DNA of 53,104 bases from a virus. Taxonomy: Duplodnaviria > Caudoviricetes. How positions within the stretch are numbered: position 1 is the stretch's first letter; each line of letters starts with the position of its first letter. The notes beneath the pieces were generated by a model that worked only from the letters and a program-made list of their open reading frames with translations, had not been told where the DNA came from and did not search any database. The position numbers were made by a program, and so were the translations under genes. Below, in pieces: positions 1,110 to 52,655 of the stretch. Where the stretch lies: IMG/VR virus record IMGVR_UViG_3300031787_000166, positions 1-53,104 of that record; one strand, written 5' to 3'.

Positions 1110-1272
1110 CCGCATCTTCCCCCCGCCCTCCCTCCCCTTGACGGGGGAGGCGAGGGTTTCCTCCACCTCGCCCCTGCTGCCCGACCCACGGGCAGTGGGG
1201 GTTTTCCTTTCACGATTGCCGCGAAGCACGGTGCGCGGCAATCCCAAACCAATCCCGTGCCGAGACACAGCA

Positions 1273-1869
1273 ATGGTCGCAGTCAAGAAGAACATCAAGT
1301 GCAAGATCAAGCCGGAAGACCTGCTCGCCGCGGTCGTCTGGAACCCCGGCGCTCCTCCGCTCAACATCGACCTTGGCCTCGCCGCCAAGGTCATCGAGAA
1401 GAAGCGCTCCAAGCGCACGGCCATGATCGACGAGCTCGTCGCGGAGGAGAAGGCCAAGGGACGGCCGGCGGAGCGGATCGTCGCCGCCATCATCTACGAC
1501 GCGGAGAAGGCTCCGAGGTCCACCAACCGCAAGCAACTCGCCGAACTCGGCGTCGAACTCCCAAAGGATGCGACGTGTCTCACCAACGAGGAGGTTCACC
1601 TCTTCCTGTGGCGCGTGATCAACGGGTTGGCGTTGCTCGGCATCTACCTGGTGGGCACCAACCATCTCAGCGACCGCAACCTTCTCGGTCTTCTCCTCAC
1701 CAGCATCATCGATGAGCAGATCCGCGATATCCCGCCGAACCCCGACGTGTCGGAGTTCATCGACCTGACGCCGTGCAAGACCTCGTCCGAAGATCTCGCC
1801 GTCTCCTTCCGCGACTCGCTGACCCCGCGTCCTAACCGCCCCCTGCCCACCGCCACCCCCACCGCTTGA
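1273..1869 (+). CDS. Hypothetical protein resembling an uncharacterised cellular bacterial family
   Basis: MVAVKKNIK...; motif LWRVINGLALLGIYLVGTNHLSDRNL. Confidence 0.75.
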   Translation: MVAVKKNIKCKIKPEDLLAAVVWNPGAPPLNIDLGLAAKVIEKKRSKRTAMIDELVAEEKAKGRPAERIVAAIIYDAEKAPRSTNRKQLAELGVELPKDATCLTNEEVHLFLWRVINGLALLGIYLVGTNHLSDRNLLGLLLTSIIDEQIRDIPPNPDVSEFIDLTPCKTSSEDLAVSFRDSLTPRPNRPLPTATPTA

Positions 1870-1885
1870 CTCACCGCCCATGTCT

Positions 1886-1925
1886 CCCCCCTCGCACCGA
1901 GTCGTTTGGTGCGGGGGGGTTTCTC
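1886..1925 (+). terminator. Intergenic stem-loop (terminator-like)
   Basis: CCCCCCTCGCACCGA-gtcgt-TTGGTGCGGGGGGG then TTTCTC. Confidence 0.6.
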
Positions 1926-1946
1926 ATTCACCCACTGGACAACACA

Positions 1947-2198
1947 ATGCGCTCCGACTTCGTCATCTTTGAGCCTCACCCGACCGACATCGACCGCGTC
2001 CGCGTCACCGTCAAGTGCGTGGACTGCAACAAGAACCACTCGTTCGACATGGACGAGGCCGCATTCTTCTCGGGGATGGAGAAGCGCCGCAACGGCGCGC
2101 TCATCCAAGTCGCCTTCCCAAACCTCGCACCTGAACACCGCGAGATGCTCGTCTCCCGAATCTGCCCATCGTGCTTCGACGCCGTCACCCCCGACTAA
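1947..2198 (+). CDS. Small zinc-ribbon protein
   Basis: CVDC...CPSC. Confidence 0.75.
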   Translation: MRSDFVIFEPHPTDIDRVRVTVKCVDCNKNHSFDMDEAAFFSGMEKRRNGALIQVAFPNLAPEHREMLVSRICPSCFDAVTPD

Positions 2199-2207
2199 GG
2201 GAAACCC

Positions 2208-3108: not shown

Positions 3109-3155
3109 CCGTCACCCCTTTACAATCTTCCAACTCTGTGTAACATAGGAGACTC

Positions 3156-4228: not shown

Positions 4229-4250
4229 TCCCACGCCGCCCCCACAACGA

Positions 4251-4280
4251 CCCGCCGATGCGACCGGCGGGCCTCTTTCC
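4251..4280 (+). promoter_or_regulatory. Intergenic hairpin with ATGCGAC loop
   Basis: CCCGCCG-atgcgac-CGGCGGG followed by cctctttcc. Confidence 0.55.
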
Positions 4281-4304
4281 CATTCACACCCACCGAGACA
4301 ACCC

Positions 4305-4772: not shown

Positions 4773-5470
4773 ACTCCCCCCGATTCCTCCACCGCGGCGC
4801 CTCCTACCCCCTGCTCACGTGGACCAGCACGATGGATTGCTGGTCGTGGTCCCTGCCTGCCGGCAAGGACGGCTCGTGCCCGATGGAGTCCCGCGCGCCG
4901 GGCTCCATCTGCAACTCGTGCTACGCGCAGCAGAACCGCTACCGCTTCTCCAACGTCCGCAACGCACAGGCCGCCCGCCTCTCCTTCCTGAAGGAGTCGC
5001 CCTATGCCTGCGAGTGGGCACTCACCACCTTCCTTCAGGAGGAGCGCCCCATCTACTTCCGTGTCCACGACAGCGGCGACTTCCACACCATCGACGCCAT
5101 CCGCATGTGGACCCGCATCTGCACCGCCGCACCCGACACCAACTTCTGGTTCCCGACCCGCGGTTGGATCTTCCCCCACTGGTTGCCCGCCCTGCAGAAG
5201 CTCAACGAGCTGCCGCATGTCAGCGTCCGTCCGTCGGCCATCCACTTCGGCGACGCCCCGCCCTTCGGGCTCGGGCTCTCCGCCGGCACGATGTCCGCCG
5301 CCGAGCACCCGTTCTCCGTCATGTCCTGCCCCAAGTCCGTGAAACACACGACCTGCCTCACCGAGTCGTGCCGCCGCTGTTGGTCCAAGGACACCGCCGT
5401 CAACTACCTGCCCCACGGACGCCTTCTTCCCGACCGACCCGTGCCCCTCACCATCGGAGCCACTTCTTGA
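4769..5470 (+). CDS. GP88-like (Gene product 88) protein, Cys-containing, radical-SAM-like
   Basis: WSLPAG..SCP...GSICNSCYA, FRVHDSGDF, FWFPTR, C..C..CW. Confidence 0.75.
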   Translation: MNSPRFLHRGASYPLLTWTSTMDCWSWSLPAGKDGSCPMESRAPGSICNSCYAQQNRYRFSNVRNAQAARLSFLKESPYACEWALTTFLQEERPIYFRVHDSGDFHTIDAIRMWTRICTAAPDTNFWFPTRGWIFPHWLPALQKLNELPHVSVRPSAIHFGDAPPFGLGLSAGTMSAAEHPFSVMSCPKSVKHTTCLTESCRRCWSKDTAVNYLPHGRLLPDRPVPLTIGATS

Positions 5471-5947: not shown

Positions 5948-5957
5948 GACACCAACC

Positions 5958-6596: not shown

Positions 6597-6602
6597 ACCA
6601 CC

Positions 6603-6840: not shown

Positions 6841-6862
6841 TCCGCCCCCACTGGAACCACAC

Positions 6863-9462: not shown

Positions 9463-11434
9463 CATCGAGACCTATGGCATCACACGATTCACCCCCACTG
9501 GGCGGCTCTTGCCCGAGCAGACCGTCTTCCACCCCGCCCGCTCCACGGATTCCGATGGGGTACTACGTGGTGACCTCATCGCCACCGTCGCTGTTACCGT
9601 TGCCCGAGCCGACGGTCCTCTTCATACCCTTGAGCCCGGCCCAACGTTCATTTTTGAAATGGGTAAGGCGTCCGCCCGATCCCACCTGGCCCGATGGCTC
9701 TCGCATGCTCAGGTCATCCTGGGAATGAACCTGCAGTTCGACCTGCTCTACCTCCGCTCCCAGCCCGACTTCCGATTCCACCTTCATTCGCAGACGCTGA
9801 TCGACCTCTCGGTCCTCAACTACCTGCACTCCGAGCTGCGCCCCGAGCGGTCGCTCAAGGCGCTCGGTCCCGTGCTCGGCACCCACGCCTACCCCAAGGA
9901 GCAGCTCGACCGCAGCCGGCGCTACAAGGACGCGCGATCGCCCGAGCTTCACCGCTACAACGCGGCCGACACCCACAACACCCTCCTCGCATGCGCCGAG
10001 CTGGCGCGCCGCATCCGCGCCGACTACCCCGGCACGGCCAAGCTCTCGCCCGAGTGCATCGCCCACTACTCCGACACCATCTGGACCGTGATCCGCATGT
10101 CCGAGGCCGGCGTCCCCATGTCCGTGCCGCGGCTCGAGGAACTGGAGCGCCGCCTCTCCGCCGAGCTCTCCGACCTGTCCACCCAGGGCCTGGTCCACGG
10201 CCTCGTGCTCGAGGGCCCGGGCTCCACCGCCTCCAAGAAATCCCTCATGGAGAAGGCCTGCCTCCACGTCGAGGAGCACCACGACCCGTCCATCCGGTCG
10301 CACCACCTGTTCCAGCTCACCGACAAGAAGCGCGAGATCGCCGTCAACGACGTGAACCGCCAGCTCTTCCTCTCGTTCCCGCTGCCCGAGACCCTCGCCG
10401 CCCCACTCCAAATCCTCGGGCGCCACTCGTCCGTGCAGAAGCTCATCTCCTCGTACACCTGCCCGCTCCTCCGCCACCGCCGCACCGACCCGGACGACCG
10501 CTCCTCCCGCCTCGTGCGCCGACCCAACTCTCCAGTGGGGGTCTCCTATCCCACGTGGTTCGTCACCCCCACTGCCTCGAAGGACGGGTCCGGCGCCGAG
10601 GGCGGCACCCTGCAGGGGCGCATCACCTGCAAGAACTTCCGGCACCAGACCGATCCCGACGAGATCAAGGAGTGCTACGCCAGCCGCTGGCCGCGCGGGC
10701 ACATCGTCGGCTACGACCTGTCGCAGATCGAGATGGTGGTGGCCGGCCTCCTGTCCGGCGACGACGCCCTCTGCTCCGCCTTCTGCGCCGACCCGCCGCT
10801 CGACCTGCACACGGCGCGCGCGACCCAGGTCTTCGGCCCCGCCATCAAGGACGACCCCGACTTCAAGAAGGTGTACCGCCAGGCGTCGAAGGGCGCCAAC
10901 TTCGGGGACCTCTTCCGCGCCGGGGCCCAGACCCTGCAGACCCAGGTGTTCAAGCAGACCGGAGTAGTGATCCCGCTTTCACTGTGCGAGAACATCGTGA
11001 AGACTCGCCCCCTCGTGCGGCCCGGACTGTGGGCGTGGCAGCAGGAGCTGATCCGGTCGACCCGGGAGCGCGGCTACCTCGAGCTCCCGTTCATCGGCCA
11101 GTCCCGGCGCTTCATGGGCGGCGACGCCTACGACATCTCCGAGATCGTGAACATGCCTGTCCAGTGCACGGCGGGCAACGTGCTGCTCCGCATCCAGCAC
11201 CGGCTGGATCGCACCCTTCCCTCGATCAATGCGGCGGCGCCCGACATCCTCATGTTCCTCAACGTGTACGACGCGATCTACTTCGACTGCCGCGACGACC
11301 CCGCCGTCGAGCGCCTCGACGTCCTCTTCCGTGACGCCTTCACCTACGTGACAACGGAGGGCTACTGGGCTAGACTGTGCGCACTTCACTCCCGAACCAT
11401 CCCGATACGCTATGAGCGCACCATCTACACCTGA
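9368..11434 (+). CDS. polA: Family A DNA polymerase with 3'-5' exonuclease; true start uncertain
   Basis: ExoI LDIET, ExoII NLQFDL, ExoIII YNAAD; TLQGRIT; motif A DLSQIE; motif B RQASKGANFG; N.PVQ.TA; motif C VYDA. Confidence 0.93.
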   Translation: MSTSSSPPSAATPRPRPNPTSSRPDPRTISLDIETYGITRFTPTGRLLPEQTVFHPARSTDSDGVLRGDLIATVAVTVARADGPLHTLEPGPTFIFEMGKASARSHLARWLSHAQVILGMNLQFDLLYLRSQPDFRFHLHSQTLIDLSVLNYLHSELRPERSLKALGPVLGTHAYPKEQLDRSRRYKDARSPELHRYNAADTHNTLLACAELARRIRADYPGTAKLSPECIAHYSDTIWTVIRMSEAGVPMSVPRLEELERRLSAELSDLSTQGLVHGLVLEGPGSTASKKSLMEKACLHVEEHHDPSIRSHHLFQLTDKKREIAVNDVNRQLFLSFPLPETLAAPLQILGRHSSVQKLISSYTCPLLRHRRTDPDDRSSRLVRRPNSPVGVSYPTWFVTPTASKDGSGAEGGTLQGRITCKNFRHQTDPDEIKECYASRWPRGHIVGYDLSQIEMVVAGLLSGDDALCSAFCADPPLDLHTARATQVFGPAIKDDPDFKKVYRQASKGANFGDLFRAGAQTLQTQVFKQTGVVIPLSLCENIVKTRPLVRPGLWAWQQELIRSTRERGYLELPFIGQSRRFMGGDAYDISEIVNMPVQCTAGNVLLRIQHRLDRTLPSINAAAPDILMFLNVYDAIYFDCRDDPAVERLDVLFRDAFTYVTTEGYWARLCALHSRTIPIRYERTIYT

Positions 11435-11437: not shown

Positions 11438-11737
11438 ATGCCTAAGATCCCTGACAACCACCGCAAGGTCATCGCACTGCTTCGCCGCGGGCACAACGCA
11501 GCCGAGGTAGCCGAGCACGTAGGCCTGTCCCGCAAGCGCGTGTTCGACCTCGCGCGCCGGCACACCCTGCCCACCAACCCGCACGTCAAGCCGAACGGCC
11601 GGATCGAGAAGCAGATCGTTCGCGCCTCCCGGGTCCTCACCATCCCCGAGATCTCGGCCGCCTTCCGTCTCGCCGAACCCCGTGTCCGCGAGATCCTCAC
11701 CCGGATCGACCGCCAGACCAAGGCCGCCCTCGCTTGA
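11438..11737 (+). CDS. Helix-turn-helix DNA-binding protein (two HTH-like units)
   Basis: NAAEVAEHVGLSRKRV; TIPEISAAFRLAEPRVREIL. Confidence 0.75.
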   Translation: MPKIPDNHRKVIALLRRGHNAAEVAEHVGLSRKRVFDLARRHTLPTNPHVKPNGRIEKQIVRASRVLTIPEISAAFRLAEPRVREILTRIDRQTKAALA

Positions 11738-12282
11738 AGCGCAGCTGGACCATCCTCCAGGACGACCGGGAAAAGACCCCCCTCCTCTTCCCGGCCAACA
11801 TGGTCATGCTCGACGACGCCCACATCCCTTGCGATCGCCGGTCCTGCACCATTTCACTTACGGTCACCAAGAAACGCTTACCAACCGGCGACTACGCCCT
11901 AGAAGGCTTTGAGTCCAAGGTCTTGATCGAGCGCAAGAAGGACCTGCCCGAGCTCTTCGCGAACCTGCTGACCCCCACTGGTCGCGAGCGATTCGTCAAG
12001 GCCTGCGACCGGCTGAGATCGGAATGCACCCATCCGATACTCATTCTCGAAGGGACCGTCGGCCACCTGGTCAGGATGGCCAAGCCTCGACTCGACGTGG
12101 ATCCATGGCTGGTGGTCGACGCCCTTCACCGAATCTGCCTTGAACGCCGCATCCAAATCCTCTACCTTCCCGCAGCAACCCCCGACCAGCGCCGATCAGT
12201 GGGGGAGGAAGTCGCAAGACTGCTGATCAACGGAGCGATCACCCATGCCGAACCGCCCTCTCCAAACGTTCCGAGCAGTTGA
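11734..12282 (+). CDS. ERCC4/XPF-family structure-specific nuclease
   Basis: LPTGDY...LIERKKDLPEL...LILEG. Confidence 0.85.
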   Translation: MKRSWTILQDDREKTPLLFPANMVMLDDAHIPCDRRSCTISLTVTKKRLPTGDYALEGFESKVLIERKKDLPELFANLLTPTGRERFVKACDRLRSECTHPILILEGTVGHLVRMAKPRLDVDPWLVVDALHRICLERRIQILYLPAATPDQRRSVGEEVARLLINGAITHAEPPSPNVPSS

Positions 12283-13849: not shown

Positions 13850-14359
13850 GTGCTCAACCGCAGCCGTGATCCCCGGGACCACGTAGGGTTCCTCACGCTG
13901 TGGGTGGGAGAGGCGCACCGAGCGCAGCGGTTCCCCAAGTGGGAGCGCGACGAGCTGCTGTCCGAAGCCTACATCCAGGCCGACCGCCTGCTCACCTCGG
14001 TCTACGACCCCGAGCGATCGACCGTCGTCACGTTCCTCAAGCGCTTCCTGCCCGGCGCCGTGCACTACCGCTACTGGACCTCGAACGGATTCCGTTTCAC
14101 CCCCACTGGTCCCCGCTTGAAACTGCACGTTACATCTGATACACTTTGTGAAGTGGTGGCCCCGTCGCCGCCGCCCTCCTCGTTCCAGCTGCCCGACCTG
14201 AGCGAGGAGGAATGGATCATCGTCAGGCTCAGGCTCGATGGATACACCATGTCGCGGATCGCATCCGTGCTGGGGCTGCGTTCGCCCCAGTCCATCTACA
14301 ACAGGATCGTCAAGATCAAGGACAAGTTTCATGGAGAATCCCACACCGATGCCGGTTGA
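13850..14359 (+). CDS. Sigma-70/ECF-like transcription factor
   Basis: DELLSEAYI...YDPERST (region 2-like); LSEEEWIIVRLR.DGYTMSRIASVLG (region 4 HTH). Confidence 0.75.
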   Translation: MLNRSRDPRDHVGFLTLWVGEAHRAQRFPKWERDELLSEAYIQADRLLTSVYDPERSTVVTFLKRFLPGAVHYRYWTSNGFRFTPTGPRLKLHVTSDTLCEVVAPSPPPSSFQLPDLSEEEWIIVRLRLDGYTMSRIASVLGLRSPQSIYNRIVKIKDKFHGESHTDAG

Positions 14360-17609: not shown

Positions 17610-17634
17610 CAGGCTGACGAAACCCCCACTGAGC

Positions 17635-38203: not shown

Positions 38204-39118
38204 TCAGATTGCGGATTCAGACGGTGACGATGCGGCTGCCCGCGCGATCGTGTCGGCCGCGAACTCCTTGACCTGCGCCTCGAGGGCGCTGAAGTCGGTT
38301 CCGGGCTTCCACTCGGGCTCGGGCACGGGCTTCGACTTGAGGATCTCCTGCGCGTCCAGTCCGTCTGCTGTTTCCGACGTCCGACCGAGACGGTCGAGAT
38401 CGCCGATTACCGAACGGAAGGTTCCCACGACAGGCTCCACGGCCTTGCCCACCTCCTCCTCCATCCACGCATCCTCGAAGGTGCCGGCCTGGCTCCGTCG
38501 GCTCTGCATGCGCTCGAGCGCCTGGCGCTCCAGCTGCCCACGCAGCGTCGTCTCGGCCTGCCGGACCCCCTCGTCTCCGCGGAGGGACTTGGCGGCTTCC
38601 AGAAGTCTCTGCACTTCCGGGTTCTTTTTCATCGTGTTCTCGAGCGCGCGATTCAGATTGTCGCGCAGTTCGCGCACACGCATGCGGTGAAGTTCGGCCC
38701 GCTGGGCCTCGAGCTGTTCCTGAAGTTGCTGGGTCATGTCGTCCTCTTGGGTTCCCCCACTGGGCTGTTCGTCTTCGAGTCCCGGCAGTTCGATCTCCTC
38801 GATCTCGTCCTCGGAGCCGGTGCCTCCGGGCGAATCGTCCTCGTACACGGGTGGTTTCTCGGCCCCTGCGCTGGTCGCCTGGATGTAGGCTTCGATCTGC
38901 GCGTCGTCGTAGCCCTGCGTCCGAAGAGTCCGGCGCACGGCCTCGCGTCGCGCCTCGGGCTCGATGTCGCTGCGGAACAGAAGCCCGACGTTGTCGAGCT
39001 CTTCGCGCAGCTCCTCGGCGTAGGCCTTCTGATCGTCGAGCTCCTTGCGCGCCGCAAGAAGTTCTCCGAGCGTGGTGGTCGTTCCGTCTTCGAGCGTGAT
39101 CTTTGTGTTTGGGTCCAT
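38204..39118 (-). CDS. Capsid scaffolding protein
   Basis: Acidic coiled coil; DGTTTTLGEL; between portal and capsid. Confidence 0.7.
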   Translation of the reverse strand: MDPNTKITLEDGTTTTLGELLAARKELDDQKAYAEELREELDNVGLLFRSDIEPEARREAVRRTLRTQGYDDAQIEAYIQATSAGAEKPPVYEDDSPGGTGSEDEIEEIELPGLEDEQPSGGTQEDDMTQQLQEQLEAQRAELHRMRVRELRDNLNRALENTMKKNPEVQRLLEAAKSLRGDEGVRQAETTLRGQLERQALERMQSRRSQAGTFEDAWMEEEVGKAVEPVVGTFRSVIGDLDRLGRTSETADGLDAQEILKSKPVPEPEWKPGTDFSALEAQVKEFAADTIARAAASSPSESAI

Positions 39119-39127: not shown

Positions 39128-41137
39128 TTACATGAGGGGCATGGCGGGTTGAGGGGCAGGTGCCCCGCCCTGCATGGACCCCATCTGGGCCATCTGCTGG
39201 TCCAGTTTCGACAGCATAGCCATATCGTCAGGATTGGGAAGGGCGTTCGGAAGTACCAATCCCATGAAGCCCACCAGCGTCTTGTGGTACTCGATGAAGG
39301 CGTTCTGCACGGATGCCTCCGCGAGCGCCATGATCGGGCTGGCCATGAACGAGTTGAGGACGCGGATCTGGAACTCGGGCTTGACGGTCTGCGGAGTCAG
39401 GATCAGCTGACCCGGGCTCTTGCCGTCGCCGTAGAGGAGGAGGCAGTTGCGCACCACGGACTCGTAGGCGCTCTGATGCTCGTCCGACCACATCGCGAAG
39501 TCGAGACCCTCCTTCAAGGCGAAGAGCATGAAGGTATCGGGGTCGATCTGGAACTGCTGCTGGAGCTGGAGCGCCTCCTGCTTGCGCGCGACCTTGGACC
39601 GCGGGTTGATGTCCCTGATCTTGAAGGAGAGCTGAGACAGGGACGGCAGCGGGTTCGTCTCGAACGAGACCGCCATCGTCTCGGGATCCACCACGACGCC
39701 CGCAAGGTCGAGCGTCAGCTGGTCCACCGTGAAGGTGCGAGGGCTGAAGACGACCTCGCGCACGGCGCCCGAAAGCACCGACCGGTAGGCGTCGCCCCAC
39801 GCCTGCTGCACCCCTGCAGTGGGGGTGTTCATCGCGCGGTTCACCTGCTCGTCGAGGAACTGCAGGCCTGTGGCCGAATCAACCCGCCCCTTCTCAGCAA
39901 GGAGATCGCGGATCGGATTGAGACGGTCGATCTGCTGTACGGCGAACGAACTGACTTTGCCGGGGACGTCGCCGCTCGTGAACGGCGTGATGTTGAACGG
40001 CCTGAAGCCTTCGCTGATCGGATCGGGCTCCCACGGGAAGACGCGCAGTCCTTGGCCAACGTCTCGCAGCATTGTGTTCGAGTTGAAGGAGCCGTGCGGC
40101 AGCACGAGGACGCCGTACTTGTCGATGTCGCGGATGTTCTGGAACAGGGACTTCTGCAGGCGCTCGGCCTCGCGGCACAGCGAGAAGAGAAGGTCGAACA
40201 CGCCGGCGCCGTGGAAGGAGCCGTTCTCCATGAAACGCGCGAAGCCGATCGGGCAGTAGACCTCGCGCCCATCGAACGACTCGTCGTGCAGGGTGCATTC
40301 GCCGCTCGTCACGATGTAGCGTTCGACCGTGTCGCGCGGGCCCTTCAGCCAAAGCTCGCGCACCCTCACGACCTGCTGCGCCTCCTTGTCCGAGTCGTAG
40401 AGCGCCATGCGATCGTCCGAGTAGGTGACCTGGGAACCGAGCGTGTACTCGTTCGCGGTCTGCTGCTCGTAGGACTCGCCCGGCTTGATCGTGTAGTACT
40501 CGATGCGGTCCTTGTTGCGCGTCACCTTCGAGCCGAACTTCTCCTTGAGGTACTCCATGGAGACCATGCGCTGGCGCAGGAGGCCGCGCTGCTTGGTGTA
40601 GTCGTGCACGAGGCTCGGAAACGGGAACAGCTCCATCGGGTGCACGACCTCGAGGTCCGCGGTGAGGCCGACCGTCGGGTGATTCACCATGTGCCCGGTG
40701 ATCCCGCAGGAGCCGAGGAGGGTGAAGAGGTGGTTGAACTGCGGCACCACGCGCTGGAGCTGGTGCTCCGAGACCACCTGATCCAGCATGATCTGTGCGA
40801 TCGATCGCTGCCGGATCGAGCTCAGCGAGGAGCCGACTCGCTGCACGAGCGGCCTGAAGTCAAGGCTGCTCAGGCGCCCCGAGATCTGGTCTACCGCCTT
40901 CAGCAGCTCCGCCGACTGGAACTCCAGGCGATCCTGCTCGTCCAGGTACGAGTACCGCACCGTCCCACTCTCCGGGTCGAACACGTCGAACTGCCTCGCC
41001 CCCTGCAGGTAGTACAGGGCCACCAGCCATGTCGCCCGCCGGTACGACAGCCGGTTCGTCTCCCGCTCCACGTGGGCGTCGATGATCCGGGCCAGCGCCA
41101 TCGGGTCCTTCGTGAGCTTGATCGGATCGGTTGCCAT
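39128..41137 (-). CDS. Portal protein
   Basis: 669 aa after terminase; EVVHPMELFP; GRVDSATGL.FL.EQ; Q/M/P-rich tail. Confidence 0.8.
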   Translation of the reverse strand: MATDPIKLTKDPMALARIIDAHVERETNRLSYRRATWLVALYYLQGARQFDVFDPESGTVRYSYLDEQDRLEFQSAELLKAVDQISGRLSSLDFRPLVQRVGSSLSSIRQRSIAQIMLDQVVSEHQLQRVVPQFNHLFTLLGSCGITGHMVNHPTVGLTADLEVVHPMELFPFPSLVHDYTKQRGLLRQRMVSMEYLKEKFGSKVTRNKDRIEYYTIKPGESYEQQTANEYTLGSQVTYSDDRMALYDSDKEAQQVVRVRELWLKGPRDTVERYIVTSGECTLHDESFDGREVYCPIGFARFMENGSFHGAGVFDLLFSLCREAERLQKSLFQNIRDIDKYGVLVLPHGSFNSNTMLRDVGQGLRVFPWEPDPISEGFRPFNITPFTSGDVPGKVSSFAVQQIDRLNPIRDLLAEKGRVDSATGLQFLDEQVNRAMNTPTAGVQQAWGDAYRSVLSGAVREVVFSPRTFTVDQLTLDLAGVVVDPETMAVSFETNPLPSLSQLSFKIRDINPRSKVARKQEALQLQQQFQIDPDTFMLFALKEGLDFAMWSDEHQSAYESVVRNCLLLYGDGKSPGQLILTPQTVKPEFQIRVLNSFMASPIMALAEASVQNAFIEYHKTLVGFMGLVLPNALPNPDDMAMLSKLDQQMAQMGSMQGGAPAPQPAMPLM

Positions 41138-41480
41138 TGGTTGCCTTTCTTGCCGCGTACCCTCCCGGGATCATGCGGATTCGTTCCTTCGTCGGAGCAT
41201 ACTGCTTGACCGCTTCCTGCGCGGGCAGGGCTCCCTCGTGGAAACCCCCACTGGAGCCGACGGACGCATGCCGCGGCCCGTTGCCGTAGTAGGCCAGGCA
41301 GAGGATCCCTAGCCAAGCATCAGAGACGGTAACGGTCGCGCCCACCGCGCCGCCCAGTGGGGGTTCCTTGACGTCGGTTCCGCCAAAGTACCAGCGGGCC
41401 ATGGCCTCGAACAGCCCGATCGGGATGCGGGTTTCAGATCTTGGAGCCGGGGGATCGCTGGACGGTCGGGGTTCGTGCAT
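40860..41480 (-). CDS. Hypothetical protein between TerL and portal, reading 278 nt into the portal gene
   Basis: Globular-looking N-terminal half (two ..YF/YG. repeats); low-complexity overlapping tail. Confidence 0.55.
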   Translation of the reverse strand: MHEPRPSSDPPAPRSETRIPIGLFEAMARWYFGGTDVKEPPLGGAVGATVTVSDAWLGILCLAYYGNGPRHASVGSSGGFHEGALPAQEAVKQYAPTKERIRMIPGGYAARKATNGNRSDQAHEGPDGAGPDHRRPRGAGDEPAVVPAGDMAGGPVLPAGGEAVRRVRPGEWDGAVLVPGRAGSPGVPVGGAAEGGRPDLGAPEQP

Positions 41481-43398: not shown

Positions 43399-43821
43399 CA
43401 ACCCCCACTGGTCACGAGGAGGTGGGCGGCGGCCAGAATGCAGAGGCCGGCCATCATCTCGGCGGGGTTCTCGGTGGCGGGGCTCATGCGGTGCAGCCTC
43501 GAGGCGATGCGCACCCACTTCGGCTTGAAGCGGTTCTCGTGCACGAGTTCGGCGCGGATCGCGGCCCCGAAGGAAGAGGCGCCTCCGACGGCGCGGTCGA
43601 GGTCGATCACGCCCAGGTCCTCGTAGACGTAGGCGCCCCAGGACGCGAAGTCCTCATTCCGCAGCTCGGGGAGGCGGGCCTCCAGCAGATCCAGCGAGCC
43701 CGGTCGGGGGAAGGACTCGGCTTGCGAGGCTTCCGGTGCCGAGAGACTTGAGCCCTCGGACCTGGGAGAGGAGTCTTGATTCGGAACGGGTCTGTTCGAG
43801 AATGTTGCCTTGTTCGTCATG
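43398..43821 (-). CDS. Hypothetical protein (start uncertain; overlaps upstream gene)
   Basis: TGATG coupling to terL; coding-like 3' half. Confidence 0.55.
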
Positions 43822-48638: not shown

Positions 48639-48887
48639 TCAGCACTTCCATGCCCGGAGGCTCTTGTTGATGCGGGAGTTCGGATCGGACGCGGTCTTCT
48701 TGGACGTGAGCTTCTTCTTCATGCCCTGCATCCGGGCGCAGAAGCTGTCGCGCCTAGGTCCGCCCTCCGGCTGCGGCGCCTTGAGGTTCGAGCCCGTGGC
48801 TCGGTTGTAGGCGGAGCGGCCCGCCGCGTTGAGACCCCCACTGGGATCGCGGTGCTCGGCCTTGAAGTCGAAGCGCTTCTTCGCCAT
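48639..48887 (-). CDS. DUF6321-like small basic protein
   Basis: GGLNAAGR..YN..TGSNLKAP...SFCARM...DPNSRINKSLRAWKC. Confidence 0.8.
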   Translation of the reverse strand: MAKKRFDFKAEHRDPSGGLNAAGRSAYNRATGSNLKAPQPEGGPRRDSFCARMQGMKKKLTSKKTASDPNSRINKSLRAWKC

Positions 48888-49597: not shown

Positions 49598-50071
49598 TCA
49601 GGGTTCCTCGTGGCAGTGGGGGTTCAGGAGGCCGAGCATGCGGCGGCCGGCGTCCTTGAGTTCTTCGGCGGTGCGGGCCTCGAGCTCGACGCCGTCCATG
49701 ATGCGCACCTTGTTGATCTCCTCGACAAGCATCGGAAGATTCTGCTGGATGTACTCGAGGGACAGCTTGTTCGTGAGGTGCTTTCCGCGGCGGCCGCCGA
49801 GGAGCGAGGCAGAGCCGGGCGCGAGGAAGTCCTTCTGCCCGAAGCGCGTCGCGGCCCACAGGCCGATGCGGAACATGTGGATGTTGACGAGCCAGTCGTC
49901 GCCGATCTGGAGGAGCGGCACGTGGATGCTGCGGCAGAAGCGCCGGAACGAGAGAGGATTCATCCCGAGCTCGGAGCAGAAGCGGGACTCGTGCACCCAG
50001 CGCAGGCCGCCGCCCACCGAGAAGGAGAAGGCCTTGTCGCGCGGACGCTTCTTGTAGCCTGGTCTGGTCAT
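49598..50071 (-). CDS. Hypothetical protein, possibly DNA-binding
   Basis: FCSELGMNPLSFRRFC HTH-like stretch. Confidence 0.65.
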   Translation of the reverse strand: MTRPGYKKRPRDKAFSFSVGGGLRWVHESRFCSELGMNPLSFRRFCRSIHVPLLQIGDDWLVNIHMFRIGLWAATRFGQKDFLAPGSASLLGGRRGKHLTNKLSLEYIQQNLPMLVEEINKVRIMDGVELEARTAEELKDAGRRMLGLLNPHCHEEP

Positions 50072-51189
50072 CGGGATCCGTAGCGTAGCGGAGGCACGAA
50101 GTTCGCGAGGTCCATGAGCTGGCGCTGCGGGGTCTGGCGGAGCGAGCGGCGCGCGGAGCCGATCGGGTCGGCCGGATCGCGGCGCGACGAGTCCCAGAGG
50201 CCGGGATCGTTCGTGGGGTTGCGCGCGACGTCGTCCGCGAGCATCTGCTCGTAGAGCGCGTCGGTGCGCTTCTTCTCCTCGGCGAGGCGCATCTGCCGGC
50301 CGTAGTCGGTGGCCTCGAGGTTGAGTTCGCCAGTGGGGGTGAGAACACCTGCGTCGCGAAGCCGGCCTTCGGGCGTTTCGTTCGTGAAGCGCCGCGGGTC
50401 CTGGTAGACGAAGGGTGCGGCAGGTTCCCGGGGACGGGGAGGGGCGCTAGGCGTGGCAGCCTGGCCGTCGACGTAGACAGGGGATTCGCCGGGGTTCAGG
50501 TAGAACTTGCGGCCTTCGGGCGTTTCGCCGTAGAGAGTGTCTTCGCCGACAAGATTGAGCTGGCTGTATGTGAGGTTGAAGCCTGGGGGTACACCGATGT
50601 AGTCTCCGTCCGTCCTGGGCTCGCGGGGCTTGACAAGTGGGTTGGTTCGTGTAGACTGAGGGGGCGCTGCACGGGATGGACCGGTTGCCAGGGCCCCGGC
50701 TGTGTTGGCTTGGGCCCTGGCCATCCGGGATTCCCGACGCGCCCTGGTATCGGCGAACCGTTCGTAGACCTGCTCGCGGGCCTGCTCGTTCCTTTCGGCC
50801 GTGCGAGTTTCGGCGTCGATACCGGCCAAGGTGTTCCTGAGCCTTTCGTCAGCGCGGCGACGGCTCAGCGGGTTGACTTGATACCCTTGGGATTCGCGCT
50901 GCATGAAGCCGGCGAGTTCGGCTTGATGCGCCTCGCGCGCGGCGACACGACGAAGATCGAAACTAGACGAAGAAGCAGCGACAGGAGCAGGAGCGTAGGG
51001 CTTTGCCCGTCCGGAAGGCGGGGACGTGGTCCCTGCGGATCCGGGCGGTTGCGTCTGTTCCTTTGGTTCGTCCGGCTTCGACGTGTACATAAAGGAAGCT
51101 GGAGCTTGGTCGGCTGCCTTTCGCTTGTCGATGAGTTCCTCTAGGAACGGGTCTGCGCTTGCGAAGCTGTAGTTCGTTGACTTGTACAT
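50068..51189 (-). CDS. Hypothetical Pro/Ala/Arg-rich protein, first gene of - arm
   Basis: GGAG SD before MYKSTNY. Confidence 0.65.
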   Translation of the reverse strand: MYKSTNYSFASADPFLEELIDKRKAADQAPASFMYTSKPDEPKEQTQPPGSAGTTSPPSGRAKPYAPAPVAASSSSFDLRRVAAREAHQAELAGFMQRESQGYQVNPLSRRRADERLRNTLAGIDAETRTAERNEQAREQVYERFADTRARRESRMARAQANTAGALATGPSRAAPPQSTRTNPLVKPREPRTDGDYIGVPPGFNLTYSQLNLVGEDTLYGETPEGRKFYLNPGESPVYVDGQAATPSAPPRPREPAAPFVYQDPRRFTNETPEGRLRDAGVLTPTGELNLEATDYGRQMRLAEEKKRTDALYEQMLADDVARNPTNDPGLWDSSRRDPADPIGSARRSLRQTPQRQLMDLANFVPPLRYGSR

Positions 51190-51216
51190 GAAGTTCTCCG
51201 GCGCGTGGCGCCAGTA

Positions 51217-51245
51217 AGGATAATCAGATGACGCTCGGTACACAA
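51217..51245 (-). promoter_or_regulatory. Candidate sigma70-type promoter for the leftward operon
   Basis: TTGTGT-N17-TATCCT in the AT-rich divergent gap. Confidence 0.35.
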
Positions 51246-51272
51246 CAAAACCCTTTGCGCACAACGGAGCCG

Positions 51273-52655
51273 ATGAAGGTGGCCCGGGCGATGCTCAAGG
51301 TGTGCTTCGAGGACGGGATGGGGCTCAAGGAGGTGCAGGGCCGGCTGTTCGAGTGGTACGGCGGCAGGTGGGTGCAGAGGGACGTGCAGTGGCTGGAGGA
51401 CGCGGTGTGGCGCTGGACCGAGGACTTGCACGTGAGCGACGACCCGAACGGGCTCGTCGTGGAGAGGTATCAGACGAACGAGCACAAGGTGAACGGGGTC
51501 GTGAGGGCTCTTCAGGCCTTGTGCCGCGTGGCTGCGACGGAGGTGCCCCAGTGGCTGGACGCGGGCGCGCGGGGACAGGTGGAGGACCCCCACTGCTGCA
51601 TTGCGTTTCGGGACGTCGTGGTGGACGTGAAGGCCAGCGCGCGCGTGGGGGCGATGGTGTGCGTCCCCCGGGGACCGGAGTGGTTTGATCCGTGCGTCAT
51701 GGACGTGGACTTGGATTCGGACGCCGAGTGCCCGCGGTGGATGCGGTGCCTCGAGGAATGGAGCGGCGGGGACGCCGCGTGGAAGGAGCTGCTGCAGCGG
51801 TGGATGGGGTACTCGCTGATGAGCCACCGGAGGTACGCGAAGTGGATGCTGTTCCACGGGAAGGTGCGCGCTGGCAAGGGCACGATCGGGACGGTGATGC
51901 GGTGGCTCTTGGGCGGAACCGGATTCGTGGGCACCAGTCTTGACGAGCTGGCGGGGAGTTTCGGGCTCGACGGGCTTGAGTTCTCGAGGGTGCTGTGCGT
52001 GAGCGAGGTGAGCGAGCTCGATGGGCGCGAGGGCGAGGTCGCGGTGCGGGTCCTGAAGAACGTGCTGGGCCGCGACCCGATCAGCATCAACGCGAAGTAC
52101 CGGCGGCAAGTCAGGAACGTGGTCGTGAATGCGGCGCCGTGGGTCCAAGCGAACGAGATCCCTCAGTTGCCGAACAAGGGGCGCGGGCTGAGCACGAAGA
52201 TGCTGGTGCTGCCGTTCGAGCGGAGCTTCGAGGGCAAGGAGCAGCACGACCTGATGGACGTGCTGAAGGGCGAGTTGGCCGGGATCGCGGCGTGGGCGCT
52301 CCGGGGCGCCATGAAGCTGGAGGCCGCGGAGGACGGCGACAAGTTTCCCCCCACTGGAAGCGGTGTGCGGGTCGTGCGCGACTACCACCTGACGAACAAC
52401 CCGTTCGACTACTTCCTTGAGGCGCGGTTCGTCCGGAACAAGCAGGGGTTCGTGGCCAACGAGCTCGTGAGGCGCGAGTGGAAGGACTGGTGCAGGGTCA
52501 ATAACGTGAAGATGCACGTCGCGGACAACCAACTTGTCAGGCGCCTGACGAGCGAAAGCAGCTGGGATCTGTGCAAGATCAGGAAAGGTGGCGAAGGTAC
52601 GCGCGGGATCGGGGGTCTTTCGCTGAAGATGGACAAAGACGACGAAGTGGACTGA
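51273..52655 (+). CDS. D5/P4-type SF3 helicase with no primase domain
   Basis: IAFRD D5_N-like region; CPRW..CL; LQRWMGYSL; GKVRAGKGT; CVSE; ANEIP; winged-helix C-terminus. Confidence 0.88.
   Translation: MKVARAMLKVCFEDGMGLKEVQGRLFEWYGGRWVQRDVQWLEDAVWRWTEDLHVSDDPNGLVVERYQTNEHKVNGVVRALQALCRVAATEVPQWLDAGARGQVEDPHCCIAFRDVVVDVKASARVGAMVCVPRGPEWFDPCVMDVDLDSDAECPRWMRCLEEWSGGDAAWKELLQRWMGYSLMSHRRYAKWMLFHGKVRAGKGTIGTVMRWLLGGTGFVGTSLDELAGSFGLDGLEFSRVLCVSEVSELDGREGEVAVRVLKNVLGRDPISINAKYRRQVRNVVVNAAPWVQANEIPQLPNKGRGLSTKMLVLPFERSFEGKEQHDLMDVLKGELAGIAAWALRGAMKLEAAEDGDKFPPTGSGVRVVRDYHLTNNPFDYFLEARFVRNKQGFVANELVRREWKDWCRVNNVKMHVADNQLVRRLTSESSWDLCKIRKGGEGTRGIGGLSLKMDKDDEVD

What the first reader, a model, noticed from the sequence alone, without database searches (positions are those of the whole stretch)
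1193..52356. Genome-wide asymmetric 9-mer CCCCCACTG (35 copies) written into coding sequence: an unexplained DNA address system
Seen: 35 exact copies, 23 on + and 12 on -, averaging one per 1.5 kb. A base-composition estimate at about 66% GC gives only 1-2. The preceding base is A in about 24 of 35 and the following base is G in about 20 of 35, giving (A)CCCCCACTG(G). Most copies lie inside genes (PolA, portal, helicase, nozzle, exonuclease). They are read in all six frames (PTG, PHW, PPL, QWG, SGG, xVG) and force codons such as ACT, CCA and AGT that are otherwise uncommon here, so selection appears to act on the DNA rather than the protein. Orientation does not follow transcription. Several copies form close opposed pairs (10533/10566, 41245/41355, 11972/12197, 28409/28795). 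It does not match Chi (GCTGGTGG), KOPS (GGGNAGGG), HIP1, matS, parS or the Neisseria/Haemophilus uptake sequences. Inference: a recognition site for a host or phage protein. Options are a Chi-like self signal that protects incoming DNA, a nucleoid/SMC-type loading site, a packaging or ejection signal, or a priming site.
Basis: partly seen in the sequence, partly recalled or inferred. Interest (0 to 1): 0.92.

Follow-up and report, generated by a model that had tools for sequence, protein, structure and literature searches.

The report
Phage family's strand-specific 9-mer address
An uncultured freshwater phage family writes the exact word CCCCCACTG, or a related 'dialect' of it, every 1.5-2 kb through its genes on both DNA strands, most likely as a mark read by one of the phage's own DNA enzymes; what that enzyme does there is untested.

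Summary
CCCCCACTG occurs 35 times (23+, 12-) in a 53,104-bp complete phage record. Shuffles give 0.66, a motif-masked Markov background 0.16-0.57, and synonymous-codon shuffles 2.1. It is the commonest 9-mer, and its one-mismatch neighbours sit at background level. The full site is about 13 bp, ACCCCCACTGRWY.

All close relatives carry it at 24-35 copies per genome across 49.5-66.6% GC. Sites are kept at orthologous positions in 64% of aligned pairs, against 14% for control 9-mers. Distant relatives carry dialects sharing a CCCC-N-C-Y core.

It is rare in 657 sampled bacterial genomes. In IMG/VR a dense signature was found only in this family, which points to a phage-encoded reader rather than a host signal.

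The sites are polar:
- Each strand's series is evenly spaced.
- Same-strand neighbours avoid each other.
- Close pairs are inverted.
- A uniform 2:1 strand bias holds family-wide and follows neither transcription nor local GC skew.

No primase or methyltransferase domain was detected. The best guess (about 0.3) is a site for strand-specific nicking or initiation of DNA synthesis by a phage enzyme, akin to the nick motifs of phages tf and T5 but on both strands. The function remains untested.

The parts
1193..1201 (-). motif copy; antisense in ORF 1138-1869 (AVGV)
   Evidence: kept in 1 of 1 aligned relatives
5173..5181 (+). motif copy; sense in GP88-like ORF 4685-5470 (FPHW)
   Evidence: kept in 0 of 3 aligned relatives
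6845..6853 (+). motif copy; outside my ORF calls
   Evidence: kept 1 of 2
9492..9500 (+). motif copy; sense in PolA (TPTG)
   Evidence: kept 0 of 4
10533..10541 (-). motif copy; antisense in PolA; left member of a G-form-first inverted pair, gap 24
   Evidence: kept 1 of 3
10566..10574 (+). motif copy; sense in PolA (TPTA); right member of the pair
   Evidence: kept 3 of 4
11972..11980 (+). motif copy; sense in ERCC4 nuclease gene
   Evidence: kept 2 of 5
12197..12205 (-). motif copy; antisense in ERCC4 nuclease gene; deeply conserved
   Evidence: kept 5 of 5
14100..14108 (+). motif copy; outside my ORF calls; lineage-specific gain
   Evidence: kept 0 of 4, relatives differ at 5 or more bases
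14922..14930 (+). motif copy; sense in PD-(D/E)XK exonuclease (PPL)
   Evidence: kept 4 of 4
15848..15856 (-). motif copy; outside my ORF calls
   Evidence: kept 1 of 1
17623..17631 (+). motif copy between ORFs 17046-17609 and 17679-18242; deeply conserved
   Evidence: kept 5 of 5
17944..17952 (+). motif copy; sense in ORF 17679-18242
   Evidence: not aligned to relatives
19916..19924 (+). motif copy; antisense in 1119-aa ORF (QWG)
   Evidence: kept 0 of 5
20032..20040 (+). motif copy; antisense in 1119-aa ORF; with 19916 one of only 2 close direct pairs seen
   Evidence: kept 1 of 5
21328..21336 (+). motif copy; antisense in 1119-aa ORF
   Evidence: kept 2 of 3
22166..22174 (-). motif copy; outside my ORF calls
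   Evidence: kept 0 of 5
25022..25030 (+). motif copy; antisense in ORF 22963-25662
   Evidence: not aligned
26057..26065 (+). motif copy; antisense in ORF 25659-27323
   Evidence: not aligned
28409..28417 (+). motif copy; antisense in ORF 27320-28978
   Evidence: not aligned
28795..28803 (-). motif copy; sense, where two ORF calls overlap
   Evidence: kept 2 of 4
30852..30860 (-). motif copy; sense in 1234-aa ORF (CBM96 domain)
   Evidence: kept 1 of 2
31325..31333 (+). motif copy; antisense in 1234-aa ORF
   Evidence: kept 0 of 1
34741..34749 (+). motif copy; antisense in ORF 34173-34955
   Evidence: not aligned
35608..35616 (-). motif copy; sense in adaptor-like ORF 34955-35839
   Evidence: kept 1 of 4
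38754..38762 (+). motif copy; antisense in ORF 38204-39118
   Evidence: kept 2 of 2
39817..39825 (-). motif copy; sense in ORF 39128-41137
   Evidence: kept 2 of 5
41245..41253 (+). motif copy in the short conserved ORF between TerL and the next gene; deeply conserved; seen as the G-form on the transcribed strand
   Evidence: kept 5 of 5 and in 26 of 28 distinct relatives' sequences
41355..41363 (-). motif copy; partner of 41245 (gap 101)
   Evidence: kept 2 of 4 and in 19 of 28
43402..43410 (+). motif copy; antisense in TerL (QWG)
   Evidence: kept 1 of 1
48835..48843 (+). motif copy; outside my ORF calls
   Evidence: kept 2 of 2
49614..49622 (-). motif copy; sense in ORF 49598-50071
   Evidence: kept 1 of 1
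50331..50339 (-). motif copy; sense in ORF 50068-51264
   Evidence: not aligned
51587..51595 (+). motif copy; sense in D5_N/SF3 helicase gene
   Evidence: kept 4 of 4
52348..52356 (+). motif copy; sense in D5_N/SF3 helicase gene
   Evidence: kept 4 of 4
11438..11737 (+). candidate reader (inferred only): 99-aa protein with two helix-turn-helix units. The first recognition helix (SRKRV) is conserved across dialect groups and the C-terminal half diverges.
   Evidence: Pfam HTH_23 3e-7; alignment A4; PDB profile hits to Bin3 invertase HTH and KorA at E 0.04; found in 8 of 13 relatives' records, of which the 5 without are incomplete or divergent
11734..12282 (+). candidate catalytic partner (inferred only): ERCC4-type nuclease with GD...ERK invariant; its gene overlaps the HTH gene's end
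   Evidence: Pfam ERCC4 2.6e-7; phrog_3490; alignment A5; adjacent to the HTH gene in G001, G003, G004, G005, G411, G412 and G413
51228..52655 (+). alternative candidate reader: D5_N + SF3 helicase lacking the N-terminal primase part of its PHROG families
   Evidence: present in all 13 relatives' records
49598..50071 (-). alternative candidate reader: 157-aa core protein; low-confidence model shows a beta-beta-alpha-alpha-beta-beta-alpha unit plus long helices
   Evidence: pLDDT 58.6; found in 12 of 13 relatives' records

Best explanation
ACCCCCACTGRWY is a cis-acting, strand-specific site read by a sequence-specific DNA enzyme that this phage family encodes and that co-evolves with the site. 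The most likely action is cutting one strand at the site, that is site-specific nicking. This would resemble the nick-associated 9-mers of Pseudomonas phages tf and Rembedalsseter and the nicks of T5, but with two independent, evenly spaced series, one on each strand.

No primase is recognisable next to PolA, the SF3 helicase, the annealase-like ATPase and the nucleases. I therefore infer that the 3'-OH ends made at the sites start strand-displacement synthesis. On that view the word would be a distributed set of start marks found only on phage DNA. A candidate enzyme is the double-HTH protein (11438-11737) together with the ERCC4 nuclease whose gene overlaps it (11734-12282).

Shown: the site, its enrichment, its conservation, the dialects, its polarity, and its rarity in the bacteria sampled.

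For: - Specificity fits an enzyme-grade site. The exact word has 35 copies against 0.16-0.66 expected, while the one-mismatch variants across six genomes are at background: 54 observed against 60-124 expected. Weaker flanks extend the site to about 13 bp (239 non-orthologous sites).
- It is a family trait that does not depend on base composition. All 41 loci with TerL at 73% identity or more, and 14 of 15 PolA loci, carry it at 0.30-0.91 per kb. The 39 loci with TerL at 55% or less have 0-1 copy. Whole genomes hold 24-35 copies at 49.5-66.6% GC.
- Purifying selection acts on the sites: 147 of 230 aligned site pairs are kept, against 13.9% of control 9-mers. Sites also turn over, by substitution and not by insertion.
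- Dialects share a CCCC-N-C-Y core: CTCCCCCAC, TTCCCCGCT, TTCCCCACTA, CCCCCACTC, AACCCCTCC, ACCCCTCCAC.
- It is not a host word in the genomes sampled. The 10-mer reaches at most 21 copies in each of 401 Pseudomonadota genomes and 2-5 in 5 others. The 11-mer reaches at most 7 in 251 Actinomycetota.
- In IMG/VR, 20 of 23 pair-scan hits related to this phage have further copies. Of the 78 unrelated hits, 73 have only the pair and 5 have one more.
- The sites are polar. Per-strand spacing CV is 0.49-0.79 (+) and 0.18-0.89 (-), against about 0.9 for random placement. Same-strand adjacent pairs under 800 bp number 34 against 50.9 expected, and 0 of 4000 label permutations were that low. Of 17 pairs under 130 bp, 15 are inverted.
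- A uniform strand bias holds family-wide: 122 to 58 in six genomes and 90 to 48 in eight dialect genomes once oriented by TerL.
- Six-frame searches of the window and four relatives find no Prim-Pol, Toprim_2 or N6/N4 methyltransferase.
- There is a precedent. In phage Rembedalsseter, WACTRTGAC marks 13 nicks, occurs inside genes, and is enriched in 61 related phages that share little nucleotide similarity; its function is unknown (PMC11780129, passages read).
Against: - No physical evidence of nicks exists. Every public run holding the phage is kept as contigs only.
- The ends of 37 related records (74 ends) lie no nearer to sites than chance predicts.
- Known nick motifs lie on one strand only. 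Here both strands carry sites.
- Close inverted pairs, with gaps of 7-27 nt, some of them conserved in three genomes, would place opposed nicks 16-36 bp apart. That risks double-strand breaks, and a nick model predicts such pairs should be avoided, not preferred.
- One relative (G415) has 125 copies of CCCCTCC in 40 kb, which is very dense for nicks.
- The link between the HTH protein and the ERCC4 nuclease rests only on conserved gene adjacency.
- Failing to detect a primase does not show that none exists, because most proteins here match no family at all.
Confidence: 0.3

Rival explanations
1. The site is where primers are made or the replicative helicase is loaded, without any nick. An unrecognised phage primase, or the D5_N/SF3 helicase acting as initiator, would recognise the site on the template strand. 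The two evenly spaced series would then be Okazaki or initiation sites for each template. The 2:1 bias would reflect which strand is more often the lagging-strand template, for example during rolling-circle replication.
For: - Each strand's series is evenly spaced at about 2.3-2.9 kb (+) and 4.4-8 kb (-), and same-strand neighbours avoid each other.
- The sites lie in all frames and ignore transcription direction.
- Close inverted pairs look like bidirectional start points and are harmless under this model.
- The helicase is a core gene in all 13 relatives' records.
- If the C-rich strand is the template, the complement of every dialect starts with a purine (AG or GG). This is my own reading of the words; the primase rules behind it are recalled.
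Against: - No Prim-Pol or Toprim_2 domain is found in six frames, and the helicase lacks the N-terminal primase part of its PHROG families.
- Known primases read 3-5 nt (recalled), not 9-13.
- The strand bias does not switch at the cumulative GC-skew minimum near 30 kb.
Confidence: 0.2
2. The sites only bind a phage DNA-binding protein and nothing is cut or started there. This would be a genome-wide operator or architectural system, comparable to mycobacteriophage stoperators or P1 C1 operators. The function could be, for example, marking phage DNA as self, organising it for packaging, or blocking a translocating enzyme in one direction.
For: - The site is an asymmetric 13-bp sequence present 24-35 times per genome, with dialects, as expected for a protein and site that co-evolve.
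- A conserved double-HTH protein and a second small core protein are available as readers.
Against: - Orientation is independent of transcription: 14 sense to 13 antisense. Also, 27 of 35 sites lie inside ORFs. Stoperators, by recall, lie between genes and are oriented with transcription.
- No repressor or integrase was recognised in the ORFs scanned.
- Simple binding to double-stranded DNA does not explain why same-strand sites repel each other while opposite-strand sites sit side by side.
Confidence: 0.18
3. The word is a host-determined polar signal, such as a Chi-like sequence for the host's RecBCD or AddAB, or another host sequence such as an uptake signal. The phage would accumulate it to protect or recombine its circularly permuted linear DNA.
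For: - The G-rich strand (CAGTGGGGG, AGCGGGGAA, GTGGAGGGG) resembles known Chi words, listed as 5-8-mers in PMC5959072 (passages).
- The polarity and per-orientation even spacing fit a signal read by a processive enzyme.
- Chi-rich phages are known (PMC12315714, abstract).
Against: - The site is 9-13 nt long.
- It is rare in the 657 sampled bacterial genomes. A truncated pair scan of 185,579 species' genomes showed no genome with dense copies; I counted copies in 80 of its 120 rows.
- The same word occurs in phages from 49.5 to 66.6% GC.
- No unrelated IMG/VR phage found by the pair scan carries it densely.
- The phage has its own recombination genes, a Sak4-like ATPase and a PD-(D/E)XK exonuclease, whereas Chi-rich lambdoid phages lack such modules.
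- The host is unknown, so this explanation is not excluded.
Confidence: 0.07
4. The word is the target of a sequence-specific base modification, either methylation or a hypermodification, made by a phage or host enzyme.
For: - The word is exact and asymmetric, as modification motifs are.
- A UDG-superfamily ORF lies next to PolA, which hints at unusual base metabolism.
Against: - Being a modification target does not by itself select for 60-200-fold enrichment, even spacing or positional conservation.
- No N6/N4 methyltransferase is found in six frames, and none appears in the ORFs scanned with Pfam. C5 and other methyltransferase families were not searched in six frames.
Confidence: 0.06

Closest known systems
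Nick-associated 9-mer (T/W)ACTRTG(A/M)C of Pseudomonas phages tf, Rembedalsseter and about 60 relatives (PMC11780129, passages read; PMC3517423 seen only as a search listing)
   Same: - A non-palindromic 9-mer far above chance (about 9-13 copies against 0.7 expected).
- It lies inside coding sequence.
- It is conserved across a phage family that shares little nucleotide identity.
- These are lytic podovirus-type genomes with two convergent gene blocks.
- The function is unknown.
   Different: - There every site lies on one strand, sites are concentrated in one part of the genome, and nicks were shown physically.
- Here both strands carry evenly spaced series at a 2:1 ratio, with 24-35 copies and clear dialects, and no physical data exist.
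- No sequence relationship was found: the window's TerL, ERCC4 and HTH proteins gave no tblastn match in the phage collection.
T5/BF23 and phiKMV-type localised nicks (mentioned in the passages; details recalled)
   Same: Sequence-specific interruptions of one strand in virion DNA of lytic phages. The enzyme responsible is presumed to be phage-encoded.
   Different: The nicks lie on one strand only, the sites are few, and the consensus sequences are different.
GCCCA-associated single-strand interruptions of haloarchaeal pleomorphic virus HRPV-3 (PMC3384331, passages)
   Same: A C-rich short motif with 27 sites on both strands, showing polarity, some of them in close groups.
   Different: - The motif is a 5-mer.
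- The interruptions are short single-stranded stretches.
- Their polarity follows transcription.
- The virus infects archaea, and the authors suspect a host enzyme.
Chi-enriched phages (lambdoid LLS group: PMC12315714, abstract; P1: recalled)
   Same: A polar G-rich word accumulated in a phage genome at roughly one per 2 kb.
   Different: Chi is a 5-8-mer that is abundant in the host, and the phages that accumulate it lack their own recombination module. Here the word is 9-13 nt, is rare in the bacteria sampled, and the phage has its own recombination genes.
Stoperators of Cluster A mycobacteriophages and DUS/USS 'dialects' of Neisseriaceae and Pasteurellaceae (both recalled; no call)
   Same: Asymmetric exact words, tens of copies per phage genome (stoperators) or about one per kb (DUS), with lineage-specific dialects around a conserved core.
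   Different: Stoperators lie between genes and are oriented with transcription. DUS and USS are features of the host chromosome, read by the competence machinery.

Membership tests
Phage nick-associated motifs (T5, phiKMV, tf type) | Physical single-strand interruptions at the motif in virion DNA | not testable with these tools
   All 22 runs listed are kept as contigs. Laying 4 of them showed no places where molecules begin or end.
Phage nick-associated motifs (T5, phiKMV, tf type) | Motif enriched and conserved across a phage family, inside genes, independent of reading frame | tested here: met
Phage nick-associated motifs (T5, phiKMV, tf type) | All sites on one strand | tested here: not met
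   23+ and 12- in the window; 122 to 58 in six genomes
Chi (RecBCD/AddAB hotspot) | Word over-represented in the host chromosome, about one per 3-5 kb | tested here: inconclusive
   The host is unknown. The word reaches at most 21 copies per genome in the 401 + 5 genomes searched with the 10-mer, and at most 7 in the 251 searched with the 11-mer.
Chi (RecBCD/AddAB hotspot) | Shared by unrelated phages and DNA of the same host; Chi-rich phages lack their own recombination module | tested here: not met
   A dense signature appears only in this family among 101 IMG/VR pair hits. A Sak4-like ATPase and a PD-(D/E)XK exonuclease are present. The rule is taken from the abstract of PMC12315714.
Chi (RecBCD/AddAB hotspot) | Length of 5-8 nt | tested here: not met
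   All 35 copies of each 8-mer sub-word lie inside the 9-mer, and the flanks add information. The Chi table is in PMC5959072.
Stoperator-type operators (recalled definition) | Sites between genes and oriented with transcription | tested here: not met
   27 of 35 sites lie inside ORFs; 14 are sense and 13 antisense.
KOPS/AIMS-type polar chromosome words | Strong strand skew that switches at the origin and terminus | tested here: not met
   The + fraction is a uniform 0.68 along the genome. A constant model fits better than the local-skew model, with log-likelihoods of -113.1 and -139.6.
Primase recognition sites | A primase encoded by the replicon, with a short (3-5 nt) template word | tested here: not met
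   No Prim-Pol or Toprim_2 in six frames of the window and 4 relatives. The word is 9-13 nt. An unrecognised primase is not excluded.
DNA uptake sequences (DUS/USS) | About one per kb in the genome of a competent host | tested here: inconclusive
   Not found in the 657 genomes sampled. The host is unknown.

The most novel reading that the evidence does not exclude
The family replicates without a primase by means of a sequence-addressed system. A bipartite reader that co-evolves with the site, possibly the double-HTH protein with the ERCC4 nuclease, opens or nicks the 13-bp word on either strand at evenly spaced marks. PolA then starts strand-displacement synthesis there, and the annealase, SSB-like protein and exonuclease pair the displaced strands. 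The word would thus be a replicon-specific 'self' code that confines phage DNA synthesis to phage DNA. Its dialects would act as incompatibility barriers between related phages.
Probability: 0.15. Interest if true: 0.88.

Novelty: new variant of a known kind. Interest (0 to 1): 0.7.

Why it matters
Genome-wide phage-specific words are known from only a few cultured phages, where they mark nicks of unknown purpose. This case differs from those in several ways:
- It covers a whole uncultured freshwater family, with dozens of records from 41 to 67% GC.
- Selection on the sites is unusually clear.
- Dialects evolve around a fixed core.
- Two independent strand-specific series have regular spacing.
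- A constant 2:1 polarity holds across the family.

The site has a sharp definition, and a short list of conserved small DNA-binding and nuclease genes could be tested as its reader. That makes the long-open question of what such marks are for directly testable. If the marks turn out to be start sites for DNA synthesis, they would define a new way for a virus to restrict replication to its own DNA. They would also provide new sequence-specific nicking or binding proteins with 9-13-bp specificity.

Tried and rejected
1. Strand bias as a by-product of GC skew. I first thought (fC/fG)^5 explained the 2:1 bias. A per-site test rejects this. Where local composition predicts 31% on +, 69% are on +. 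Log-likelihoods are -139.6 for the composition model, -113.1 for a constant bias and -124.8 for 0.5.

2. Depletion of one-mismatch neighbours, which would suggest repair biased towards the word. Observed 54 against 60 (order 3) to 124 (order 1) expected in six genomes. There is no clear depletion once the background is modelled at higher order.

3. Sites as inserted mini-elements. At one locus with 0, 1 or 2 copies in three genomes, the alignment shows substitutions and small indels rather than a clean insertion.

4. The conserved 101-nt stretch between 41245 and 41355 as an RNA or a pac element. It lies in an open frame with a conserved peptide. There are no tRNA genes and no Rfam matches anywhere in the window.

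5. Contig ends as a trace of nicks. The 74 ends lie at a median of 1028 nt from the nearest site, against 1159 expected; 5% lie within 100 nt against 6% expected.

6. Public runs. All runs holding the stretch are kept as contigs, labelled freshwater, lake water and 'fungus metagenome'. Laying four of them gave no ends and no usable variant list, because only 40 of 658 differences were shown. No conclusion on nicks, expression or habitat is drawn from them.

7. Complex prediction of the ERCC4 nuclease with the HTH protein gave 'no answer', with score 0.00 in two runs. This counts neither for nor against binding.

8. Structure of gp17046: pLDDT 83.8. Foldseek gave only weak SSB/OB-fold-like hits (E 0.02 or worse, TM 0.26 or lower). 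It may be an SSB and is not a reader candidate. The gp49598 model has pLDDT 58.6, so no fold search was run on it.

9. Protein Atlas search for the 1119-aa protein found only 'large polyvalent protein'-type clusters.

10. The genome-contig scan for direct pairs stopped at 120 rows. I counted copies in 80 of the 120 loci: 55 had only the pair, 17 had three copies and 8 had four or more. tblastx of all 120 against the phages gave only short high-GC noise.

11. Bacterial genome G353 has 24 copies, which are a repeated element with paired sites about 160 bp apart and not a genome-wide word.

12. A literature search for the word itself returned 817 papers, and the 20 listed were unrelated primer sequences. 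I found no paper on this motif. Searches made.

13. megablast of window 1-20000 and tblastn of TerL, ERCC4 and the HTH protein against the phage collection gave no match. PolA and the helicase reach only 24-29% identity to cultured phages.

15. The sampled bacterial sets include unpublished genomes: G393, and G438, G468, G502, G508, G540, G568, G594 and G646. They enter only the tallies (0-2 copies each), and no claim depends on them.

16. Caveats on the statistics. The six close genomes share orthologous sites, so their P values are not independent. G005 and five of the dialect records are incomplete but were treated as circles. My ORF calls are a GC3-based heuristic.

Full report
WHAT IS THERE

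The window is a whole IMG/VR virus record: 53,104 bp, no end repeats found, 100% complete by CheckV's estimate.

CCCCCACTG occurs 35 times at exactly the coordinates given, 23 on + and 12 on -. Every control puts the expected count far lower:
- Dinucleotide-preserving shuffles give 0.66 (maximum 3; 0 of 100 reach 35).
- The word read backwards occurs 5 times.
- Markov backgrounds of order 1-3, estimated with the motif masked, give 0.57, 0.27 and 0.16.
- Shuffling synonymous codons within ORFs gives 2.13 +/- 1.23 (maximum 6 of 500) against 28 counted in ORFs.
- The 504 words of the same composition average 1.04 copies. The next highest has 7 and overlaps the motif.

It is the commonest 9-mer of the genome, and all 35 copies of each 8-mer sub-word lie inside it. 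The 27 one-mismatch variants are at background: 5-6 copies in the window, and 54 against 60-124 expected over six genomes.

From 239 non-orthologous sites in relatives, the site extends to about 13 bp:
- position -1: A in 69%;
- position +9: G in 46%, A in 38%;
- position +10: T in 52%, A in 28%;
- position +11: C in 44%, T in 31%.

This gives ACCCCCACTGRWY.

CODING CONTEXT

A GC3-based ORF call gives two gene blocks.
- A + block runs from 51228 across the record's ends to 18242. It holds the D5_N/SF3 helicase, a UDG-like ORF, PolA, a double-HTH protein, an ERCC4 nuclease, a PD-(D/E)XK exonuclease and a Sak4-like ATPase.
- A - block runs from about 51264 down to 18239. It holds TerL, an SU10-adaptor-like protein, a CBM96-bearing 1234-aa protein and a 1119-aa protein.

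Most proteins match no family.

27 of 35 sites lie in called ORFs, 14 sense and 13 antisense, in all six frames. They impose rare codons: ACT is 7% of Thr codons, with 10 of 65 in the motif, and AGT is 4% of Ser codons, with 4 of 42 in the motif. Selection therefore acts on the DNA.

A FAMILY TRAIT WITH DIALECTS

TerL and PolA searches of IMG/VR returned 95 loci.
- All 41 loci with TerL at 73% identity or more carry the word at 0.30-0.87 per kb.
- 14 of 15 PolA loci carry it at 0.44-0.91 per kb.
- The 39 loci with TerL at 55% or less have 0-1 copy.

Five whole or near-whole relatives hold 35, 28, 32, 24 and 26 copies, at 62.9-66.6% GC and, for G004, 49.5% GC. Nucleotide identity to the window is only 70-77% over the alignable 35-60% of the genome.

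Across all genome pairs, 147 of 230 aligned sites keep the word, against 13.9% of control 9-mers. Against the 49.5%-GC genome alone the figures are 50 of 66 against about 4%.

Some sites are kept in every aligned relative:
- 12197-, 17623+ and 41245+ in 5 of 5;
- 14922+, 51587+ and 52348+ in 4 of 4.

Other sites are lineage-specific, and the relatives differ there at 4-6 bases. One locus aligned in detail shows gain or loss by substitution.

More distant relatives (TerL 38-55% identity) carry their own words:
- CTCCCCCAC(T), 12 copies;
- TTCCCCGCT, 18 and 12 copies;
- TTCCCCACTA, 11-13 copies;
- CCCCCACTC, 17 and 10 copies;
- AACCCCTCC, 44 copies, with CCCCTCC at 125 copies in 40 kb;
- ACCCCTCCAC, 12 copies in 14 kb;
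- possibly CCCCCTGATCC, 4 copies in 13 kb.

All share the core CCCC-N-C-Y. The most distant record (G419, TerL 38%, 57% complete) shows no clear word.

HOST OR PHAGE?

The host is unknown, and the phage occurs in freshwater and lake runs. Three kinds of search argue against a host signal.

First, counts in sampled bacterial genomes are low:
- The 10-mer ACCCCCACTG has 24 copies in the window, about one per 2.2 kb.
- It has 2-5 copies in five assorted bacterial genomes, including a Cyanobium MAG.
- It has at most 21 copies per genome in 401 evenly drawn Pseudomonadota, usually fewer than the backwards control.
- The 11-mer has at most 7 copies in 251 Actinomycetota.

The rows are scattered over many taxa, and no genome shows dense copies.

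Third, the same kind of scan for inverted pairs in IMG/VR gave 101 stretches.
- 23 are related to this phage, and 20 of these have further copies (0.15-0.72 extra per kb).
- 78 are unrelated. Of these, 73 have only the pair, a plain hairpin, and 5 have one further copy.

A host signal such as Chi or an uptake sequence should also show up in the host and in unrelated phages of that host. Chi-rich phages, moreover, lack their own recombination genes (PMC12315714, abstract), whereas this phage has them. A reader encoded by the phage is therefore much the likelier.

POLARITY

- Combined spacing is somewhat more even than random: CV 0.69-0.88 against 0.95.
- Each strand taken alone is more even still. 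The + series has CV 0.49-0.79, with P of 0.013 or less in 5 of 6 genomes. The - series has CV 0.18-0.89.
- Ten of 13 testable strand sets in the dialect genomes also have a CV below the random mean, one equals it and two exceed it.
- Among 93 adjacent pairs closer than 800 bp in 13 genomes, 34 are same-strand against 50.9 expected. None of 4000 label permutations was that low.
- Of the 17 pairs closer than 130 bp, 15 are inverted and 13 of those have the C-rich form first.
- One CCCCCACTG-N9-CAGTGGGGG arrangement sits at the same place in three genomes with different spacers.
- The C-rich form lies on the window's + strand in 122 of 180 sites of six genomes. This fraction stays the same wherever local GC skew points, and it is independent of gene direction.
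- Eight dialect genomes, once oriented by TerL, give 90 to 48.

So there are two independent strand-specific series at a fixed 2:1 ratio. These statistics share orthologous sites between genomes and should be read as consistent trends and not as independent tests.

WHO COULD READ IT

The genes shared by all dialect groups are:
- PolA;
- the 99-aa double-HTH protein;
- the ERCC4 nuclease;
- the exonuclease;
- the Sak4-like ATPase;
- a 187-aa protein with weak SSB-like fold matches;
- the two giant proteins;
- the structural block;
- a 157-aa protein with a possible winged-helix unit and long helices (low-confidence model);
- the helicase.

The double-HTH protein has a first recognition helix that is invariant across dialects and a divergent second half. 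That mirrors a fixed CCCC core with a variable remainder, but any protein would diverge with phylogeny, so this is no more than a lead. Its gene overlaps that of the ERCC4 nuclease in every genome where both were found. The nuclease keeps its GD...ERK residues.

Six-frame searches of the window and four relatives find no Prim-Pol, Toprim_2 or N6/N4 methyltransferase.

COMPARISON WITH WHAT IS KNOWN

The nearest documented phenomenon is the nick-associated 9-mer of Pseudomonas phages tf and Rembedalsseter. It has 13 sites, all on one strand and inside genes. It is enriched in 61 related phages that share little nucleotide similarity, and its function is unknown (PMC11780129). T5 and phiKMV nicks, and the GCCCA-linked interruptions of HRPV-3 (PMC3384331), are further examples.

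The present case shares the sharp word, the enrichment and the family-wide conservation. It differs in having both strands marked, even spacing, many more copies and explicit dialects. It fails the 'one strand only' feature, and the defining physical nicks cannot be tested here.

VERDICT

The finding is real and far beyond chance. I rate it a new variant of the known kind 'phage-specific genome-wide strand marks'.

My best mechanism is strand-specific nicking or initiation by a phage enzyme (0.3). The rivals, in order, are:
- priming or helicase loading without a nick (0.2);
- pure binding (0.18);
- a host Chi-like signal (0.07);
- a modification target (0.06).

The close, preferred inverted pairs are the main argument against simple virion nicks, and they fit start sites better. 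None of these mechanisms has been tested physically.

Noticed in passing
window 8809-9462 (+): An ORF of the uracil-DNA-glycosylase superfamily (Pfam UDG, E 9.8e-14) ends inside the start of the PolA ORF (9368). My GC3-based gene call had missed it.
   Followed up: partly
window 1-30000 versus 30001-53104: The + strand is strongly C-rich (GC skew -0.07 to -0.23) over the first 30 kb, whichever strand the genes lie on, and slightly G-rich after that. The cumulative minimum lies near 28-32 kb, where GC content is also lowest (0.595 at 32-36 kb). Motif orientation does not switch there.
   Followed up: partly
G411 and G414 (loci L243-L245, L252-L253): These two relatives carry a second, unrelated enriched word, CACCGCAGC, with 14 and 10 copies against about 0.5 expected, in addition to their C-run dialect.
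   Followed up: no
G415 (loci L254-L255): Extreme density of the dialect core: CCCCTCC occurs 125 times in 40 kb (25 expected) and AACCCCTCC 44 times.
   Followed up: no
window 41138-41480 (-): An open frame starting at 41480 lies between TerL and the next large ORF, encodes a conserved peptide (WYFGG...) and runs on to 40860 in a different frame from the ORF that starts at 41137. The two calls overlap by about 280 nt, so one start is wrong or the arrangement is unusual.
   Followed up: no
IMG/VR loci L267-L366 (78 unrelated stretches): Many unrelated viral contigs, several of them about 61-62 kb long and near 48-54% GC, carry a single CCCCCACTG-loop-CAGTGGGGG hairpin and no other copy. This is probably a conserved stem-loop of another phage group.
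   Followed up: no
bacterial genome G353 (locus L240 and other places listed): A 1.8-Mb genome has 24 copies of the word, mostly as inverted pairs about 160 bp apart at several loci. This looks like a small repeated element with the word in its terminal repeats.
   Followed up: no
window 7700-8600: In the contigs of three or four public runs, many alternative joints skip 60-630 bases here, suggesting a variable or repeat-rich stretch among co-occurring strains.
   Followed up: no
G004 (loci L113-L115): This 49.5%-GC relative has a 99-bp direct terminal repeat. Its ends map to about window 22.5-23.5 kb, inside the - gene block and about 580 bp from the conserved N9 inverted pair.
   Followed up: partly
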